Source: an uncultured Planctomycetia bacterium
GTDB lineage: Bacteria; Omnitrophota; Gorgyraeia; Duberdicusellales; 4484-171
Reading direction: 5' to 3'
DNA: 64,000 nucleotides
NCBI GenBank assembly: GCA_964605645.1
Contig: CAZSDJ010000002.1
Location: 394-64,393 of the forward strand
Below the pieces are notes generated by a model. The model worked only from the letters and a program-made list of their open reading frames with translations. It was not told where the DNA came from and did not search any database. The translations under genes and the position numbers were made by a program. The number at the start of each line of letters is the position of its first letter. Position 1 is the stretch's first letter. Positions 2 to 40,960 of the stretch are shown here, one piece after another.

Positions 2-1561
2 GAAACTTCAACTACCGCAATTACCAGCCTAATTTTTGAAGGCCTAACCAGAACAAACGGTGTAACTCAAGAGGTTGAACCAAACCTGGCTAAAGCCTGG
101 GAAGTTTCAGAAGATGGAAGGGTTTGGACATTTTATTTAAGAGAAGATGCAAAATGGTTTGACGGCGAGCCTTTTACTGCAGATGATGTGGTGTTTACCT
201 TCCGGCGGCTTATCTTTAATCCTGAGATTGAAACCAGCGCCCGGGATATTTTTACAGTTGAGGGGAAAATTATAAAAGTTAAAAAAATAGATGATTTTAC
301 TGTAGAGTTTAATTTGCCTACTAAATTTGCTCCTTTTTTGCGGGCGATGCCACAAAGCATTTTACCTAAACACCTCTTAGCTGATGTGGTAAAAAAAGAT
401 GAATTTAATTACTTCTGGGGGATAAACACAAAGCCGGAGGAATTGGTAGGAACCGGCCCTTTTAAATTAAGTAAATACCTTTCCGGTGAAAGGATAGTTT
501 TAGAGAAAAATAAAAATTACTGGCGCAGAGGTAAAGGCGGATGCAGGCTTCCCTTTTTAGAAAAAGTAGTCTATGTTATAGTCCAAAATCAAGATGTTGC
601 TTTGTTAAAATTCCTGGAAGGTGAGATTGATTATGTAAGTATAAGAGGCCAGGACTATCCGATCATAAAACCAGCCGAAAAAAAAGGGAATTTTACAATT
701 TATAACGTGGGGCCGGTTTTAAGCTCTAACTTTTTAGTTTTTAATCAAAACAACCGTATAAATCCTAAAACCGGCAAACACTATATTAGCCCTCAAAAAT
801 TAGGTTGGTTCAATGAAGAAAATTTTAGAAAAGCAGTAGCTTATGCGATTGACCGGCAAGCGATAATTGATATTGTTTTTAACGGCCTCGGTTACAGGCA
901 ATATTCTCCCGTGCCGGAATCAGCCGGTTTTTTTCATAATCCAAAGGTAAAAAAGTATGATTATAATACGGAAAAATCTTTAGAATTATTAAAAGATATC
1001 GGAATTTACGACCGGAATCAAGATGGTATTTTAGAAGATAAAGAAGGTAACCAAATAAAATTTAATTTATTTGCGCCAGCCAGAAGTAATCAGCGCCGCG
1101 ACATTGCCAATATTATCAGAAAAGATTTAGAGGATATAGGTATTGGGGTAAATTTTGTGCCGTTAGCATTTAACCAAATTGTGGCAAAACTTGATTCAAC
1201 TTATAATTGGGATGCAATTTTAATTGGCCTAACCGGTGGGATTGAGCCTCATTTTGGCAAAAATGTCTGGAGCTCATCCGGCCATTTGCATATGTGGTAC
1301 CCTAAACAGAAGCAGCCGGCAACTAGATGGGAGGCTGAAATTGATAAGATATTTAATAAGGGAGTTCAAATTTTAGATAGAGATAAACGTAAAATTGTAT
1401 ATGATCGTTGGCAGGAAATTGTGGCTGACAAACTGCCTTTAATTTATACAGTTCAGCCGGCAAATATCTTTGCAATAAGAGATAAGTTTGGCAACTTAAA
1501 GCCTACCTCATACGGGGGAGCTTTTCATAATTTGGAAGAAATCTATATAAAAAATGATTAG
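2..1561 (+). CDS. ABC transporter substrate-binding protein, family 5 (Opp/Dpp-like), 5'-truncated at window edge
   Basis: The frame is open from nt 2 with no upstream stop, so the listed ORF start at 188 is internal. Size and sequence fit periplasmic peptide-binding proteins. It is followed directly by two permeases and two ATPases. Confidence 0.8.
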   Translation, partial: ETSTTAITSLIFEGLTRTNGVTQEVEPNLAKAWEVSEDGRVWTFYLREDAKWFDGEPFTADDVVFTFRRLIFNPEIETSARDIFTVEGKIIKVKKIDDFTVEFNLPTKFAPFLRAMPQSILPKHLLADVVKKDEFNYFWGINTKPEELVGTGPFKLSKYLSGERIVLEKNKNYWRRGKGGCRLPFLEKVVYVIVQNQDVALLKFLEGEIDYVSIRGQDYPIIKPAEKKGNFTIYNVGPVLSSNFLVFNQNNRINPKTGKHYISPQKLGWFNEENFRKAVAYAIDRQAIIDIVFNGLGYRQYSPVPESAGFFHNPKVKKYDYNTEKSLELLKDIGIYDRNQDGILEDKEGNQIKFNLFAPARSNQRRDIANIIRKDLEDIGIGVNFVPLAFNQIVAKLDSTYNWDAILIGLTGGIEPHFGKNVWSSSGHLHMWYPKQKQPATRWEAEIDKIFNKGVQILDRDKRKIVYDRWQEIVADKLPLIYTVQPANIFAIRDKFGNLKPTSYGGAFHNLEEIYIKND

Positions 1562-5452: not shown

Positions 5453-5473
5453 ATTTATTTGTTATTTTAATAG

Positions 5474-7327
5474 GTGTCTGTCCCTATTTTTGTCCCTATT
5501 TTTGGGGATTGCGGTTTGATTCTGGCTATGATAAACTATAATGTTATGAGGAATTCATCGCAAAAAGAATTGATTGATTTTATTCGGGAGAAGCAAGGCA
5601 GTATTTCAGAAGAGTTGGTGGGATATATAAAAAGATTGGCTTTTTATGATGTTTTGTACCTGTATGCTTTGTATCAAAAATTTTGGCAAGCAGAAAAAGA
5701 ACTTCAAATTGGCCATAATTTTATCCCCGCGGCACTTCTTAGTGAAAAAGAAAGAATCAAGGAGCTGAATGTAGTTGATTATAGTCAGATTAGAGATGAT
5801 TCCAGTTTAAATAAATTTGCAAAAAAAGTTAATCTTATTTGTAATCCGATGGACGCCGGACTTGGTTCATCCTTGTCGCGGCTGAGTTATTTAAAGAAAA
5901 TTTGGAAAAGTATCAATAGGAAAGGAAAGCCTCGCCTGGGGGCTAAAGGGGAAGATTTATATTTTGATATTAAGGTAGGAGATTCTAGTCAAAAAATAAA
6001 TGTTACCGAGATTAAATACTTACAAGCTATAAATGCAGCTTCCTGTTATAAAAAAATTATTATTGAAGAGCTAGTCAACGAAGAAAGCATTGATTCAATT
6101 AATGAATTTTTAGATGAAACTATTAATTTTAAGGGATTAACCTACCGGAAATTAATTGCGAAAAAGAAAAAAATAGATTTAGCCAAAAAGATGATTGTCC
6201 AAGCGTCTCTACCGACTATCGATAAAGAAAGCAAGAAGCTGACTATGAAGCGAGTTGCTCCCGGCGGCCACGGCCAGCTTGGTTCGATGGTTTTAGGAGA
6301 TGCCGCCGAAGCAAAGAATTCTTTTGCAGAGCTTTTAATTAGGGTAATTTACAACGGAGATGGCCCCAATAATTTTCCCGATCAAAAAATTATTGGATTT
6401 ATGGCAAAAAATAAAATACCGATTATTATGATTACTTCAACTAAAACTCCAATTGATCAAAAAGGGGGCCAAATTGGTTTGGAAATAACCGAAGAAGGCA
6501 ACAAGAAACCGCAAATTTTAGAGTTAGCTCAGGCAGAAGAGCAGGGACAAAAAGATATATTTAGAAAGATTGGGATAAAAGGATTTGATGAATCTATTTA
6601 CGGCAAAGCAGATAAACAATATTTTAATACCAATATTGCTCTGATAAATTATTCGGTAATTTCATCTTTTTTAAAAGATTTATACAATGTAATTGGAGCC
6701 AGAAAATTTTCTCAGATTATTAGTCCCGATTTAATTAAAAATGAAAAAATTCAAGCTAAAAAATCTTATATTCAATTAGAAGGAGCGTTAGCTTCAACTC
6801 TTTTAAATTTAGCCGGATTTATAAAAATAAATAAAGATAAAAAAGTAAAAAAGCTGATTAAGAAATATAAAGTTACTAATTTTTTAGTGATAGTAAATAT
6901 TGATAAAAAGCAAAGGACAGAATTCTTTACTCCGATTAAGTATGCTTGGGATTTTTGGTTTTATGCTTATTCGGATCATTTTAGGCTAGATATTAATAAT
7001 TTTAAGTTGGAAAATTTAAGATCAAACAGCTTACCCAGTTTTGATTTAGGTCCCTTTTATCAAGATTTAGAAAATTGTATTGAAGCTTTTGGCAAAGCCT
7101 CAACTATTGATTTAGATTTTTTGACAATCGAAGGCAAGGTATTTCTAAAAAATGCAAAATTGTCAGGAGTGGTTGTAATCGAGAATCAACTAGAGAAACT
7201 AATTGACCTCAATAATGATCTATTTAAAAATAAGCTTGAATATCAAAATCAATGTTTATTCTTAAAAGATATCAAGATAACGATTAAATCTGAGAAAAAA
7301 ATAGAAGTAGAAGAGCTAACCACTTAG
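5474..7327 (+). CDS. UDP-sugar pyrophosphorylase family protein (eukaryotic-type UTP-glucose-1-phosphate uridylyltransferase, UDPGP/PF01704-like)
   Basis: Motifs align with UGPase/UAP family: nucleotide loop AGLGSSLSR (cf. GGLGTSMG), PGGHGQ (cf. PPGHGD), TSTKTPIDQKGGQ...ILELAQ (cf. TNKTRADVKGG...LVEIAQ), FNTNIALIN (cf. FNTNNLWISL). Exact start uncertain (no clear RBS). Confidence 0.6.
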   Translation: MSVPIFVPIFGDCGLILAMINYNVMRNSSQKELIDFIREKQGSISEELVGYIKRLAFYDVLYLYALYQKFWQAEKELQIGHNFIPAALLSEKERIKELNVVDYSQIRDDSSLNKFAKKVNLICNPMDAGLGSSLSRLSYLKKIWKSINRKGKPRLGAKGEDLYFDIKVGDSSQKINVTEIKYLQAINAASCYKKIIIEELVNEESIDSINEFLDETINFKGLTYRKLIAKKKKIDLAKKMIVQASLPTIDKESKKLTMKRVAPGGHGQLGSMVLGDAAEAKNSFAELLIRVIYNGDGPNNFPDQKIIGFMAKNKIPIIMITSTKTPIDQKGGQIGLEITEEGNKKPQILELAQAEEQGQKDIFRKIGIKGFDESIYGKADKQYFNTNIALINYSVISSFLKDLYNVIGARKFSQIISPDLIKNEKIQAKKSYIQLEGALASTLLNLAGFIKINKDKKVKKLIKKYKVTNFLVIVNIDKKQRTEFFTPIKYAWDFWFYAYSDHFRLDINNFKLENLRSNSLPSFDLGPFYQDLENCIEAFGKASTIDLDFLTIEGKVFLKNAKLSGVVVIENQLEKLIDLNNDLFKNKLEYQNQCLFLKDIKITIKSEKKIEVEELTT

Positions 7328-7339
7328 AATCGCTCCCCA

Positions 7340-7368
7340 TTGACATTTACCTATATATTATATATAAT
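7340..7368 (+). promoter_or_regulatory. consensus sigma70-type promoter TTGACA-17-TATAAT upstream of lysS
   Basis: TTGACA at 7340-7345, 17-nt spacer, TATAAT at 7363-7368. The ATG at 7378 is about 10 nt downstream with no Shine-Dalgarno, implying a near-leaderless transcript. Confidence 0.55.
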
Positions 7369-32122: not shown

Positions 32123-32195
32123 GAGCCGCTAGCTCAGTTGGTAGAGCACCGCCCTTTTAAGGCGGCTGTCCCGAGTTCGAGCCTCGGGCGGCTCA
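32123..32195 (+). tRNA. tRNA-Lys (anticodon TTT)
   Basis: Cloverleaf read by hand: acceptor GAGCCGC/GCGGCTC, D-arm GCTCAGTTGGTAGAGC, anticodon loop CTTTTAA, T-arm CCGAGTTCGAGCCTCGG. No encoded CCA. Confidence 0.8.
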
Positions 32196-32198
32196 CTT

Positions 32199-32283
32199 GC
32201 CGCGGTGGCGGAATTGGCAGACGCGCTGGACTTAGAATCCAGTCTCGTGAGAGGTGGGAGTTCGACTCTCCCCCGCGGCACCA
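32199..32283 (+). tRNA. tRNA-Leu (anticodon TAG), class II with long variable arm, CCA encoded
   Basis: Acceptor GCCGCGG/CCGCGGC, anticodon loop CTTAGAA, variable arm TCTCGTGAGAGGT, T-arm GGGAGTTCGACTCTCCC, 3' ACCA. Confidence 0.8.
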
Positions 32284-32323
32284 ATTAGCCAATGGCTAAT
32301 GGCTAATAGCTATAAGCTAAATT

Positions 32324-32396
32324 GCGGGTGTAGCTCAGCCGGTAGAGCGTCACGTTGCCAACGTGAAGGTCGGGGGTTCGAGACCCCTCGCCCGCT
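32324..32396 (+). tRNA. tRNA-Gly (anticodon GCC)
   Basis: Acceptor GCGGGTG/CGCCCGC, D-arm AGCTCAGCCGGTAGAGC, anticodon loop TTGCCAA, T-arm GGGGGTTCGAGACCCCT. Confidence 0.8.
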
Positions 32397-39458: not shown

Positions 39459-40310
39459 AATATTAGAAATGATATGGAGTTGAAGCAAGTTAAAAAAGTT
39501 GGGGTTATCGGAGTTGGTTTAATGGGGGGCTCTTTAGCCTTGGCTCTTAAGAAAAGTTTCAATAATTTTGAGATTATAGGCCATGCCAGAAGCGATAAAA
39601 CATTTAGGCGCCTTAGAAAAGCAAAGGTCTTAGATAGGATTGAAAGGTCTGATAAAAAAATTGCTCAAGAAGCGGATATTCTAATTTTAGCTACTCCGGT
39701 GGGGATAATTATTGATCTTTTAAAGAAATTAGCTCCTCACCTTAAAAAAGGAGCAATTGTTTTTGATTTAGGAAGCAGTAAAAAAGAAATAGAAAAAATA
39801 GCTAAAAGCAATCTTTCTAAAGGAGTTTATTTTGTGGGTTGCCATCCTTTTTGCGGTTCAGAAAAAAAAGGAGTTGCCAGAGCCAGAGGGGATCTTTACC
39901 AAGATTCAATATGCTTTATAACTTCAAAAAATAAAGCAACACCGGTAGTTTCCAAAATTTGGAAAAAAATTGGTGCTATTGTTATTCAAGTAAACTCAAA
40001 AGCTCATGATAAAATTACTTGTTTTCTTTCGCACCTACCTCATCTTATTTGTTTTTCTTTGCTGAATACAGTACCGAATAATTATTTAAATTTCAGTTCG
40101 TCAGGTTTTCGTGATTTTACCAGAATCGGTTCTTCTTCCGATAGCCTTTGGACCGATATTTTTTTAACCAACAAAAAAGAAATATTAAAAAGTATAAATA
40201 AAACAAAAAAAGAAATAGGTAAATTTACTAAAGCAATTAAAACAGAAGACCGGAAAAAAATAAAAATATTAATAAAGAAAGCAAACAGAAAAAGAACTAA
40301 AGTTTTATGA
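39447..40310 (+). CDS. tyrA: prephenate dehydrogenase
   Basis: Rossmann VGVIGVGLMGGSLALAL. Alternative start 39474 (MELKQVKK) would place the heptamer repeat in the intergenic region. Confidence 0.8.
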   Translation: MSKVNIRNDMELKQVKKVGVIGVGLMGGSLALALKKSFNNFEIIGHARSDKTFRRLRKAKVLDRIERSDKKIAQEADILILATPVGIIIDLLKKLAPHLKKGAIVFDLGSSKKEIEKIAKSNLSKGVYFVGCHPFCGSEKKGVARARGDLYQDSICFITSKNKATPVVSKIWKKIGAIVIQVNSKAHDKITCFLSHLPHLICFSLLNTVPNNYLNFSSSGFRDFTRIGSSSDSLWTDIFLTNKKEILKSINKTKKEIGKFTKAIKTEDRKKIKILIKKANRKRTKVL

Positions 40311-40960
40311 TTGTAGCAATAGATGGGCCGGCAGGTTCAGGTAAAACTACTGTAGCAAGAAGGTTAGCTAAAAGATTAGGTTTTGCTTTCCTCGATACGG
40401 GGGCAACTTACCGGGCTTTAACTTATTCTGCTTTGGAAAAAAATATCAACCTGGAAGTTGAAGAAAAATTAGCTGATTTGGCAGCCAATCTCAATTTAAA
40501 GATAGAAGACAATAAAATATATCTGTACGACAATGATATCAGTAAGGAAATTCGTAAATCAAGAATTGATAAAAATATTTCAAAAATAGTTAGTTTTGAG
40601 AAAGTGCGGAAAGTGATGAGCTCACTGCAAAGGCGAGAAGCTTCCGATAAAGATTGTGTGATAGAAGGCAGGGATATTACAACTGTAGTTTTTCCCGATG
40701 CAGAATTTAAATTTTATCTGGACGCTGATCAAAAGATCCGGGCTAAAAGAAGAATCCATCAATTGTTGGAAGAAGGAGAGGCTGTAAATTCAGAAGAGGT
40801 TGAAGCCGATCTGATAAAAAGAGACAATGCAGATAAAAACCGCAAAGTAGGATCTCTTCAATTAACCAAAGAAACTCGTTATATTGATACTACAAAGTTA
40901 TTAATTCCAGAAGTTATTGAAAAGTTATACGGGATAGTTAGCCAGAGATTTCAAAAGTAA
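40307..40960 (+). CDS. cmk: cytidylate kinase
   Basis: IAIDGPAGSGKTT P-loop. 217 aa. Confidence 0.9.
   Translation: MIVAIDGPAGSGKTTVARRLAKRLGFAFLDTGATYRALTYSALEKNINLEVEEKLADLAANLNLKIEDNKIYLYDNDISKEIRKSRIDKNISKIVSFEKVRKVMSSLQRREASDKDCVIEGRDITTVVFPDAEFKFYLDADQKIRAKRRIHQLLEEGEAVNSEEVEADLIKRDNADKNRKVGSLQLTKETRYIDTTKLLIPEVIEKLYGIVSQRFQK

What the first reader, a model, noticed from the sequence alone, without database searches (positions are those of the whole stretch)
5474..7327. Eukaryotic-type UDP-glucose pyrophosphorylase (UDPGP family) homologue directly downstream of the oligopeptide ABC operon
The 617-aa protein shares the diagnostic blocks of the UGPase/UAP (PF01704) family rather than the bacterial GalU family.

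- AGLGSSLSR matches the GGLGTSMG nucleotide loop.
- PGGHGQ matches PPGHGD.
- KTPIDQKGGQ...ILELAQ matches KTRADVKGG...LVEIAQ.
- FNTNIALIN matches FNTNNLWISL.

Bacteria usually make UDP-glucose with the unrelated GalU enzyme. A UDPGP-family enzyme here suggests horizontal acquisition or a lineage-specific sugar-nucleotide pathway. Its long N-terminal (about 120 aa) and C-terminal extensions are unexplained.

Its position between a peptide importer and lysS gives no functional context, so its substrate is unknown.
Basis: partly seen in the sequence, partly recalled or inferred. Interest (0 to 1): 0.6.

Follow-up and report, generated by a model that had tools for sequence, protein, structure and literature searches.

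The report
Divergent eukaryote-type UDP-glucose pyrophosphorylase, Omnitrophota
This gene encodes a very divergent bacterial relative of the eukaryotic enzyme that makes UDP-glucose. It is an ordinary, vertically inherited gene here, but in related bacteria the same module is built into giant multi-enzyme sugar-metabolism proteins.

Summary

Both "unexplained extensions" are the normal N- and C-terminal domains of the fold. The true start is probably ATG 5546 (593 aa), not GTG 5474.

Positions matching all 14 functionally assigned UGP residues are conserved. One deviates: the first NB-loop Gly is Ala128.

Recent horizontal transfer is not supported. Synteny holds in eight Omnitrophota genomes, GC3 is typical, and identity to eukaryotic enzymes is only 14-20%.

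The protein belongs to a separate bacterial clade of about 290-380 clusters. Nearly half the listed members are fused into long or giant ORFs with PGM, PGI, FBPase, NDK, CMK, GT48 glucan synthase or TreT. That supports an NDP-hexose, most likely UDP-glucose, product.

One distant subclade sits beside a GDP-mannose dehydratase, so the nucleotide and sugar remain unproven.

Verdict: a new member of a known family, of moderate interest.

The parts
5546..7327 (+). Probable true coding sequence of the UDPGP-family protein (593 aa plus stop). The 617-aa reading from GTG 5474 is the longest ORF and the one held in the NCBI-derived record (P0001).
   Evidence: in-frame stops just upstream of the equivalent start in L008 and L009; residues 1-15 below pLDDT 50.
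5546..5827 (+). N-terminal, mostly helical domain (residues 25-118). It corresponds to the N-terminal domain of eukaryotic UGPases and is not an extra extension.
5849..5881 (+). Nucleotide-binding (NB) loop, M126-D-A-G-L-G-S-S-L-S-R136. It corresponds to LNGGLGTSM of fungal UGPs. The first Gly is Ala128. G129, G131 and R136 are invariant or nearly so across the clade.
   Evidence: Residue roles from PMC10470519 and PMC5381698. Not significant by sequence alone.
5939..5959 (+). G156-A-K158-G-E-D161-L162. Inferred to be the equivalent of the GPK motif, the phosphate-binding Lys (human K127, A. nidulans K135), reached after a clade-specific insertion of about 18 residues.
   Evidence: K158 is kept in 153 of 155 copies. 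The equivalence is inferred from motif order and predicted secondary structure. It was not shown by any alignment.
6200..6223 (+). Q243-ASLPTID. Inferred equivalent of the uridine-contacting Gln (A. nidulans Q198).
   Evidence: Q in 76 of 82 stand-alone copies. It lies inside the Pfam-matched stretch 226-561. The equivalence is inferred.
6260..6277 (+). P263-G-G265-H266-G-Q. Equals the PPGHGD motif. H266 equals L. major H191, human H223 and A. nidulans H228 (beta-phosphate contact).
   Evidence: HMMER alignments. H is kept in 154 of 155 copies. PMC5381698, PMC10470519.
6353..6373 (+). N294-G-D296-G-P-N-N. Equals the N-x-D-N motif. N294 contacts sugar and phosphate (human N251). D296 contacts Mg2+ or ribose (human D253).
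   Evidence: Mutagenesis data in PMC5381698.
6443..6469 (+). Sugar-binding loop K324-TPID328-Q-K330-G-G332. Equals KTRADVKGG.
6515..6535 (+). I348-L-E350-L-A-Q-A. E350 equals the glucose-binding Glu (A. nidulans E307, A. thaliana E271).
   Evidence: PMC10470519.
6623..6649 (+). F384-N385-T-N387-IALIN. Equals FNTNN. N385 and N387 equal the glucose-pocket Asn residues (A. nidulans N329 and N331).
   Evidence: PMC10470519.
6914..6952 (+). R481-TEFFTPI-K489-YAWD493. Equals R-FLPVK-T-SD. K489 is the catalytic Lys (human K396, A. nidulans K403, LmUSP K434).
   Evidence: HMMER alignments. K is kept in 155 of 155 copies. PMC5381698, PMC10470519, PMC12584669.
6962..7324 (+). C-terminal beta-rich domain (residues about 497-617). 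It corresponds to the C-terminal left-handed beta-helix domain of eukaryotic UGPases.
   Evidence: Residues 485-581 align to yeast Ugp1 residues 373-470. The profile aligns to residues 372-476. Strands predicted.
5453..5545 (+). Gap between oppF and the probable start. It has no sigma-70-like promoter on the + strand, no terminator and no Rfam match. It contains a tandem direct repeat, GTCCCTATTTTT x2, at 5480-5503.

Best explanation
The gene encodes a soluble, cytoplasmic, stand-alone sugar-1-phosphate nucleotidyltransferase. It has the three-domain fold of eukaryotic UDP-glucose pyrophosphorylases. It belongs to a deep bacterial sister clade of those enzymes and is inherited vertically in this Omnitrophota lineage.

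Most likely reaction: UTP + glucose-1-phosphate <-> UDP-glucose + PPi, by the single-Mg2+, Lys-assisted in-line mechanism described for eukaryotic UGP and USP.

Proposed residue roles:
- The Gly-rich loop (126-136), Q243 and G265 hold the uridine.
- K158, H266 and K489 hold the phosphates.
- D296 binds Mg2+ or ribose.
- N294, E350, N385 and N387 hold the glucose.

Shown here: family membership, fold, conservation of these positions, vertical inheritance, and the fusion and neighbour partners of relatives.

Inferred: the K158 and Q243 equivalences, the cytoplasmic location, and the identity of both substrates.

Confidence is about 0.9 that it is an active NDP-hexose pyrophosphorylase, and about 0.55-0.6 that the product is specifically UDP-glucose.
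For: Family and fold:
- Pfam UDPGP above its cut-off.
- The clade profile hits only UGPases among PDB sequences, with E from 1.9e-15 to 8e-8.
- The model has pLDDT 89.7 and pTM 0.89.
- The top 32 Foldseek hits are all eukaryotic UGPases, E 3e-24 to 4e-18. UAP and USP come at about 1e-13.

Active site:
- All 14 positions matched to the assigned A. nidulans and human UGP residues are conserved in 82 stand-alone and 73 long copies. Roles come from PMC10470519, PMC5381698 and PMC12584669.

Fusions in the nearest outgroup relatives (41-50% identity):
- PGM/PMM in P0034, P0145 and five others.
- Cupin GPI in P0031 and P0151.
- PGI in P0145.
- FBPase in P0037 and P0048.
- NDK in P0038 and two others.
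- In the L013 ORF of at least 5,933 aa: GT48 1,3-beta-glucan synthase (E 1.7e-73), cytidylate kinase and TreT trehalose synthase.

Other context:
- A separate PGM gene lies just upstream in three Elusimicrobia loci.
- The giant ORFs are uninterrupted under the standard code.
- From M25 there is no N-terminal hydrophobic segment.
- NCBI already names close relatives UTP--glucose-1-phosphate uridylyltransferase.
Against: - No member of this clade has been assayed.
- The first NB-loop glycine is Ala128 here and in 53 of 82 stand-alone copies. In the human enzyme G115D leaves 0.004% activity, and the position is described as sterically restricted to Gly (PMC5381698, PMC10470519). Nucleotide binding may therefore differ.
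- Residues 112-275 show no sequence-detectable similarity to any solved UGPase. The K158 and Q243 equivalences are therefore unverified.
- In one subclade (33% identity; L005, L021, L022, L023) the neighbours are a GalK-like kinase and a near-equivalog GDP-mannose 4,6-dehydratase. That hints at a GDP-hexose or salvage role there.
- PGM/PMM domains do not distinguish glucose from mannose.
- Cytidylate kinase points to CTP as much as to UTP.
- The window's own context (opp operon, lysS) says nothing about function.
- The gene is the fastest-evolving of its syntenic block.
- Whether the genome also has galU, glgC or manC could not be checked.
Confidence: 0.58

Rival explanations
1. It is a pyrophosphorylase for a different nucleotide or sugar, for example GTP + mannose-1-phosphate giving GDP-mannose, or a CDP- or ADP-hexose. 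On this reading the clade is an NDP-hexose pyrophosphorylase family whose nucleotide is not uridine.
For: - The gene directly downstream of the homologue in L005, L021 and L023 scores 405-407 bits on TIGR01472 GDP-mannose 4,6-dehydratase (cut-off 415). Any other dehydratase or epimerase model scores about 100 bits.
- PGM/PMM fusion partners could be phosphomannomutases.
- Cytidylate kinase is fused in L013 and L016.
- Ala replaces the first NB-loop Gly.
- The published Omnitrophota giant-protein sugar module includes starch synthase, which is often ADP-glucose dependent (bioRxiv 10.64898/2026.06.07.730766).
Against: - The Gmd-linked loci are one subclade: the UDPGP proteins are 67-86% identical and the Gmd proteins 88-93%. 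They share only 33% identity with the window protein, so they count as a single, distant observation.
- The nearer relatives (41-50%) are fused to GPI/PGI, which is the glucose branch, not a mannose isomerase. They are also fused to the UDP-glucose users GT48 and TreT.
- The uridine-contact positions (Q243, G129, G265) and the glucose-contact positions are the same as in UGPs.
- No PF01704 enzyme using GTP is known to me (own knowledge).
Confidence: 0.17
2. It is a broad-specificity UDP-sugar pyrophosphorylase (USP-like). It would work in a salvage route behind sugar-1-kinases, as in plants, Leishmania and Bifidobacterium.
For: - A GalK-like GHMP kinase lies near the homologue in L005, L021, L022 and L023.
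- Characterised bacterial USPs exist: BLUSP and BiUSP (PMC5974040).
- USP and UGP share most active-site residues (PMC12584669).
Against: - The clade profile finds no USP among PDB sequences at E below 0.01.
- No sugar-1-kinase lies near the gene in the window or among the nearer relatives.
Confidence: 0.15
3. It is a recent horizontal acquisition from a eukaryote.
For: The closest solved structures are all eukaryotic.
Against: - Identity to eukaryotic UGPases is only 14-20%.
- About 290-380 bacterial clusters form a separate clade. It is found in Omnitrophota, Elusimicrobia/Endomicrobia, Planctomycetales, Bdellovibrio-like and other MAGs.
- Synteny is conserved in eight Omnitrophota genomes.
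- GC and GC3 are typical of the neighbours.
Confidence: 0.03
4. It is a UDP-GlcNAc pyrophosphorylase (UAP-like), or a catalytically dead scaffold or regulatory protein.
For: - The gene is the fastest-evolving of its block.
Against: - The profile hits no UAP by sequence.
- All catalytic and sugar-pocket positions are conserved across 155 copies, which argues against loss of activity.
- Bacteria normally use GlmU for UDP-GlcNAc (established knowledge).
Confidence: 0.04

Closest known systems
Eukaryotic UDP-glucose pyrophosphorylases (UGPase-A; T. brucei 3gue, L. major 2oef, human 3r2w/4r7p, yeast 2i5k, A. thaliana 2icy, A. nidulans 8c0b)
   Same: - Same order of motifs.
- Same phosphate-binding His and Lys, Mg/ribose Asp, sugar-pocket Asn/Glu/Asn/Asn and uridine Gln.
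   Different: - Only 14-20% identity.
- About 120 extra residues, spread as insertions: about 18 between the NB loop and K158, about 22 between K158 and Q243, and about 54 between H266 and K489.
- The first NB-loop Gly is Ala.
- The N-terminal half of the catalytic domain is unrecognisable by sequence.
- Bacterial, and in relatives embedded in giant ORFs.
Characterised bacterial UDP-sugar pyrophosphorylases of Bifidobacterium (BLUSP, BiUSP)
   Same: They are bacterial enzymes of the eukaryote-type family, so a UDPGP-type enzyme in a bacterium is not unprecedented (PMC5974040). That they belong to PF01704 is my own knowledge and was not tested here.
   Different: They are promiscuous USPs. The window protein is structurally nearer to UGP than to USP. 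It comes from a different, uncharacterised clade.
GalU-type bacterial UDP-glucose pyrophosphorylases (NTP_transferase family; e.g. Y. pestis 6mnu)
   Different: - No Pfam NTP_transferase hit.
- No N-terminal or C-terminal UGP-type domains in GalU.
- Different catalytic-motif layout.
Sugar-metabolism modules of Omnitrophota giant multi-enzyme proteins (bioRxiv 10.1101/2023.11.21.568195 and 10.64898/2026.06.07.730766)
   Same: Relatives of the window protein are domains of such giant ORFs. They sit alongside PGM/PMM, GPI and FBPase, the same partner enzymes those papers list.
   Different: - The window protein is a free-standing gene of 593 aa.
- Neither paper's main text mentions a UDPGP/PF01704 or pyrophosphorylase domain, UDP-glucose, or (in the 2026 preprint) GalU. 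Their supplements were not searched.

Membership tests
UDPGP family (Pfam PF01704; eukaryote-type UGP/USP/UAP) | Match to the family HMM above the curated gathering score | tested here: met
   45.4 bits against a cut-off of 22, E 6.2e-12, residues 226-561 on profile positions 119-410.
UDPGP family (Pfam PF01704; eukaryote-type UGP/USP/UAP) | Three-domain architecture: N-terminal domain, central Rossmann-like catalytic domain, C-terminal beta-helix domain | tested here: met
   The model (pLDDT 89.7) aligns to 430 of 457 residues of 3gue and 433 of 465 residues of 3r2w. The C-terminal domain also aligns by sequence to yeast residues 373-470.
UDPGP family (Pfam PF01704; eukaryote-type UGP/USP/UAP) | Gly-rich nucleotide-binding loop (L-x-G-G-x-G-T/S) | tested here: inconclusive
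   M126-D-A-G-L-G-S-S is at the expected place, and G129 and G131 are nearly invariant. However, the first Gly is Ala. HMMER gives this alignment about 0 bits, and a sub-profile of residues 112-275 finds no UGPase. No residue-level structural alignment could be obtained.
UDPGP family (Pfam PF01704; eukaryote-type UGP/USP/UAP) | Phosphate-coordinating Lys/His/Lys triad (human K127, H223, K396) | tested here: met
   H266 and K489 align by HMMER. They are kept in 154 of 155 and 155 of 155 copies. K158 (153 of 155) is assigned by inference only.
UDPGP family (Pfam PF01704; eukaryote-type UGP/USP/UAP) | N-x-D motif (human N251 and D253) and sugar-binding loop KxxxDxKGG | tested here: met
   N294, D296, and K324..D328-x-K330-G-G align and are conserved. 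D296 is D or E across the clade.
UGPase subfamily (UDP-glucose specific) | Glucose pocket Asn/Glu/Asn/Asn (A. nidulans N256, E307, N329, N331) and uridine Gln | tested here: met
   N294, E350, N385 and N387 align and are almost invariant. Q243 is conserved but its equivalence is inferred (PMC10470519).
UGPase subfamily (UDP-glucose specific) | Closer to UGP than to UAP or USP | tested here: met
   [not shown]
UGPase subfamily (UDP-glucose specific) | Catalyses UTP + Glc-1-P <-> UDP-Glc + PPi, with UTP specificity | not testable with these tools
   Only indirect support: fusions with PGM, GPI/PGI, FBPase, NDK, GT48 and TreT in relatives. Contrary hint: a Gmd neighbour in a distant subclade.
GalU / NTP_transferase-type bacterial UGPase | Match to the NTP_transferase family and a GalU-like single-domain architecture | tested here: not met
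   [not shown]
Omnitrophota giant multi-enzyme proteins | The domain is part of one very long uninterrupted ORF | tested here: not met
   The window gene is bounded by a stop at 7325-7327 and by non-coding gaps of 93 nt and 50 nt. The modules M1, M2, M3, GT48, TreT, PGM, GPI, FBPase and NDK are absent from the window.

The most novel reading that the evidence does not exclude
The window protein is the free-standing form of an undescribed bacterial sister clade of eukaryotic UGPases. The clade's main role would be to feed UDP-glucose to eukaryote-type GT48 beta-1,3-glucan synthase and TreT trehalose synthase.

In relatives (Omnitrophota-like and Endomicrobia), the whole route FBPase -> PGI -> PGM -> UGPase (+NDK/CMK) -> glucan or trehalose synthase is hard-wired into single giant polypeptides. 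These are often signal-peptide-bearing and often framed by two uncharacterised "bookend" modules (M1 and M3).

That would make the clade a marker of a single-polypeptide sugar assembly line. It would also make it a candidate bacterial relative of the eukaryotic UGP/GT48 pair.
Probability: 0.2. Interest if true: 0.7.

Novelty: new member of a known kind. Interest (0 to 1): 0.4.

Why it matters
For this gene the result mostly tidies things up. It is a genuine eukaryote-type UGPase-fold enzyme with a complete active site. Its "extensions" are normal domains. It is an old, vertically inherited Omnitrophota gene, not a recent import.

It matters somewhat more widely for three reasons:

1. It defines an uncharacterised bacterial clade of about 300 clusters. 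The clade is so divergent that half of the catalytic domain escapes sequence searches.
2. It adds the missing sugar-activating step (a UDPGP-type pyrophosphorylase) to the sugar-metabolism modules already reported in Omnitrophota giant proteins. It also links that step to GT48 glucan synthase and TreT domains.
3. A small soluble stand-alone member like this one is the practical entry point for assaying the clade's nucleotide and sugar specificity.

Tried and rejected
- **NCBIfam scan of the protein:** no hit.
- **Sub-profile of residues 112-275 against PDB sequences:** only chance MCM3 matches at E about 1.5. There is therefore no sequence proof for the NB-loop, K158 or Q243 equivalences.
- **Search with a 91-aa yeast Ugp1 segment to obtain full-length eukaryotic UGPases:** it returned only exon-sized fragments of 80-160 aa. 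The planned profile-profile alignment and phylogeny could not be done.
- **afdb50 fold library:** unavailable.
- **Model coordinates:** not available to scripts, so no residue-level superposition was possible.
- **Idea that the giant fused ORFs are gene-calling or genetic-code artefacts:** rejected. With all three stop codons counted, the ORFs run at least 5,933, 4,145, 3,935 and 2,477 aa, and one is in 61%-GC DNA.
- **Partner modules in the window:** no hit for GT48, TreT, PGM, GPI, FBPase, NDK, M1, M2 or M3. Only a housekeeping cmk at 40307-40960 was found.
- **Pfam on modules M1, M2 and M3 and on the unknown neighbours in L003 and L005:** nothing significant.
- **Riboswitch or other RNA element upstream of the gene:** none; Rfam finds only three tRNAs elsewhere.
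- **The three Gmd-linked contexts as independent evidence from three phyla:** rejected. They are one near-identical cassette.
- **Literature:** no paper linking Omnitrophota and UDP-glucose pyrophosphorylase. The search for bacterial GT48 gave nothing specific.
Full report
**Observation.** The + strand carries an ORF at 5474-7327, giving 617 aa from a GTG start. Pfam scores it as UDPGP (PF01704) at 45.4 bits against a gathering score of 22 (E 6.2e-12). The match covers only residues 226-561. NCBIfam has no model for it.

The start codon is probably wrong. Close relatives, including one at 89% identity, begin at the position of M25 (ATG 5546). In relatives L008 and L009 an in-frame stop lies only 2-5 codons upstream of that position. 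Residues 1-15 are modelled below pLDDT 50. The likely product is therefore 593 aa.

**Organism and inheritance.** The exact 617-aa protein is in the collection from an NCBI contig of 83.8 kb, with no name attached. The nearest named relatives (75-81% identity) are "UTP--glucose-1-phosphate uridylyltransferase" of Candidatus Omnitrophica/Omnitrophota MAGs.

The block oppABCDF – this gene – lysS – lolC/D-like – class IV aminotransferase – clpB is syntenic in eight Omnitrophota loci. GC3 of the gene is 0.27, inside the neighbours' range of 0.25-0.37. It is therefore inherited vertically within this lineage.

It is also the fastest-evolving gene of the block: 59-77% identity, against 76-94% for lysS, the aminotransferase and clpB in the same genome pairs.

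The rest of the window is housekeeping: radA, cysS, mnmG, lpxB, msbA, rpsB, ptsI. It contains no partner sugar genes.

**Fold and family.** An AlphaFold model built on 22 homologues is confident (pLDDT 89.7, pTM 0.89).
- Foldseek against the PDB returns eukaryotic UGPases as the top 32 hits (E 3e-24 to 4e-18, TM up to 0.77 on the target). UDP-GlcNAc pyrophosphorylases and L. major USP follow at about 1e-13.
- A profile of the clade finds only UGPases among PDB sequences (best 1.9e-15).

The protein is thus a eukaryote-type, UGP-like member of the family and not a GalU. Both "unexplained extensions" are the regular N- and C-terminal domains of that fold. Residues 485-581 align by sequence to residues 373-470 of yeast Ugp1. 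The extra length of about 120 residues is spread over internal insertions.

**Active site.** I used the residue roles published for A. nidulans, human and Leishmania enzymes (PMC10470519, PMC5381698, PMC12584669) together with the HMMER alignments. The correspondences are:

| Role | Window residue | Reference residue |
|---|---|---|
| Uridine (NB loop) | M126 | L121 |
| Uridine (NB loop) | A128 | G123 |
| Uridine (NB loop) | G129 | G124 |
| Uridine | G265 | G227 |
| Beta-phosphate | H266 | H228 (L. major H191) |
| Sugar/phosphate | N294 | N256 |
| Mg2+/ribose | D296 | D258 |
| Sugar-binding loop | K330 | K292 |
| Glucose | E350 | E307 |
| Glucose | N385, N387 | N329, N331 |
| Catalytic Lys | K489 | K403 (human K396, LmUSP K434) |

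K158 (for K135) and Q243 (for Q198) are assigned only from motif order and predicted secondary structure. Taken alone, residues 112-275 have no detectable sequence similarity to any solved UGPase.

All these positions are conserved in 82 stand-alone and 73 long copies of the module. The one deviation is Ala at the first NB-loop glycine, seen here and in 53 of 82 stand-alone copies. The literature describes that position as sterically restricted to Gly.

**The clade.** An exhaustive profile search of 1.84 billion representatives finds 584 proteins at E <= 1e-3 and 289 at E <= 1e-30. It is a small, isolated clade. In representative genomes it occurs in Omnitrophota, Planctomycetales, Elusimicrobia/Endomicrobia, Bdellovibrio-like bacteria and a few other MAGs.

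The unexpected result is that 77 of the 170 proteins collected are 700 aa or longer and 57 are 1,000 aa or longer, up to 7,886 aa. In these the whole module of about 580 aa is embedded. These are true ORFs: with all three stop codons counted they run at least 5,933 aa (L013), 4,145 aa (L032), 3,935 aa (L030) and 2,477 aa (L017, 61% GC).

The window protein sits in a tight stand-alone subclade of 12-13 sequences. Its nearest outgroup relatives (41-50% identity) are mostly fused forms.

**Functional context from relatives.** The recognisable fusion partners are enzymes that feed or use an NDP-glucose:
- Phosphoglucomutase/phosphomannomutase: P0034, P0145, P0029, P0059, P0084, P0106, P0136.
- Cupin GPI: P0031, P0151.
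- PGI: P0145.
- glpX FBPase: P0037, P0048.
- NDK: P0038, P0059, P0143.
- In the L013 ORF: a GT48 1,3-beta-glucan synthase domain (E 1.7e-73), cytidylate kinase, RelA/SpoT-ACT and a TreT trehalose synthase.

GT48-like segments also occur with the module in P0062, P0082 and the Endomicrobiaceae ORF of L032. In three Elusimicrobia loci a PGM gene lies just upstream.

Two preprints already describe Omnitrophota giant "multi-enzyme" proteins with PGM, GPI, FBPase, starch synthase and GT1 domains. Their main texts do not mention a UDPGP or pyrophosphorylase domain.

Together these data support the route FBPase -> PGI -> PGM -> this enzyme -> glucosyltransferases, with UDP-glucose as the product.

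**A conflicting hint.** In one distant subclade (33% identity: L005, L021, L022, L023) the neighbours are a GalK-like kinase, a near-equivalog GDP-mannose 4,6-dehydratase (405-407 bits, cut-off 415) and a methyltransferase. These loci carry one near-identical cassette despite different phylum labels, so they count as a single observation. They still show that the nucleotide and sugar cannot be taken as settled for the whole clade.

**Localisation.** From M25 the window protein has no hydrophobic N-terminus and is most simply cytoplasmic. Many fused relatives start with signal-peptide-like segments inside two recurrent uncharacterised N-terminal modules: M1 in 18 proteins and M2 in 11. Of the 18 M1 proteins, 16 also end in a module of about 75 aa, M3. 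One stand-alone relative (P0013, 50% identity) has a lipoprotein-type signal. Whether those enzyme modules are inside or outside the cell is an open question, also raised in the 2023 preprint.

**Verdict.** The family assignment is right. The extensions are explained. Recent horizontal transfer is not supported.

The best reading is an active, cytoplasmic UDP-glucose pyrophosphorylase of a deep bacterial UGP-like clade. Confidence is about 0.9 for an NDP-hexose pyrophosphorylase and about 0.58 for UDP-glucose. It is a new member of a known family, already named as such by automatic annotation. Interest is moderate and comes mainly from the clade's recurrent incorporation into giant sugar-metabolism proteins.

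Noticed in passing
L013:3-17801 (CAZDKO010000016.1); also P0062, P0082, L032:3075-4784: One uninterrupted ORF of at least 5,933 aa carries, in order, a eukaryote-type GT48 1,3-beta-glucan synthase domain (E 1.7e-73), the UDPGP-like module, cytidylate kinase, HD/RelA-SpoT/ACT, and a TreT trehalose synthase. GT48-like segments recur with the module in three other giant ORFs, including one from Endomicrobiaceae.
   Followed up: partly
P0034, P0036, P0038, P0048, P0052, P0069, P0071, P0073, P0078, P0085, P0098, P0100, P0105, P0114, P0136, P0155: A "bookend" architecture. An uncharacterised N-terminal module of about 400 aa starts with a signal-peptide-like segment (M1). An uncharacterised module of about 75 aa sits at the extreme C-terminus (M3, ...GFVPVIINI..P..LPLLG...). 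They frame the same 16 proteins, with the UDPGP module and sometimes PGM or NDK in between. Neither module has a Pfam match.
   Followed up: partly
L005, L021, L022, L023: A GalK-like kinase ... UDPGP-like – Gmd-like dehydratase – methyltransferase cassette. It is 67-93% identical at the protein level in MAGs labelled Roizmanbacteria (CPR), Gammaproteobacteria and Limisphaerales. That indicates either recent cassette transfer or mis-binned contigs.
   Followed up: partly
window 5480-5503: A perfect tandem direct repeat, GTCCCTATTTTT x2, lies in the gap between oppF and the probable ATG start (5546). It falls inside the 5' part of the annotated GTG-started ORF. It could be a regulatory site.
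   Followed up: no
window 7340-7368: A perfect sigma-70 consensus promoter (TTGACA-17-TATAAT) lies in the 50-nt gap before lysS. No promoter-like site lies on the + strand between oppF and the UDPGP gene, so the gene may be co-transcribed with the opp operon.
   Followed up: no
window 5546-7327 compared with L001, L002 and L007-L012: The UDPGP gene is the fastest-evolving gene of its conserved block: 59-77% identity, against 76-94% for lysS, the class IV aminotransferase and clpB in the same genomes.
   Followed up: partly
L001:1-680: In a syntenic Omnitrophota relative, a gene for an 11,419-aa protein ends a few kb upstream of the opp operon. A Y1 transposase and an HTH/Fic pair lie in between. 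The equivalent region lies outside the window.
   Followed up: no
P0013 (residues 1-34): The nearest stand-alone relative outside the syntenic subclade (50% identity) has a lipoprotein-type signal peptide (…FILLG-C). That would place a UGPase-like enzyme outside the cytoplasm.
   Followed up: no
window 32123-32396: A cluster of three tRNA genes on the + strand. These are the only Rfam matches in the window.
   Followed up: no
window 188-1561: The oppA ORF listed from GTG 188 (457 aa) is probably cut by the window edge. Its Pfam match starts at profile position 41, and the syntenic orthologue is 569 aa.
   Followed up: no
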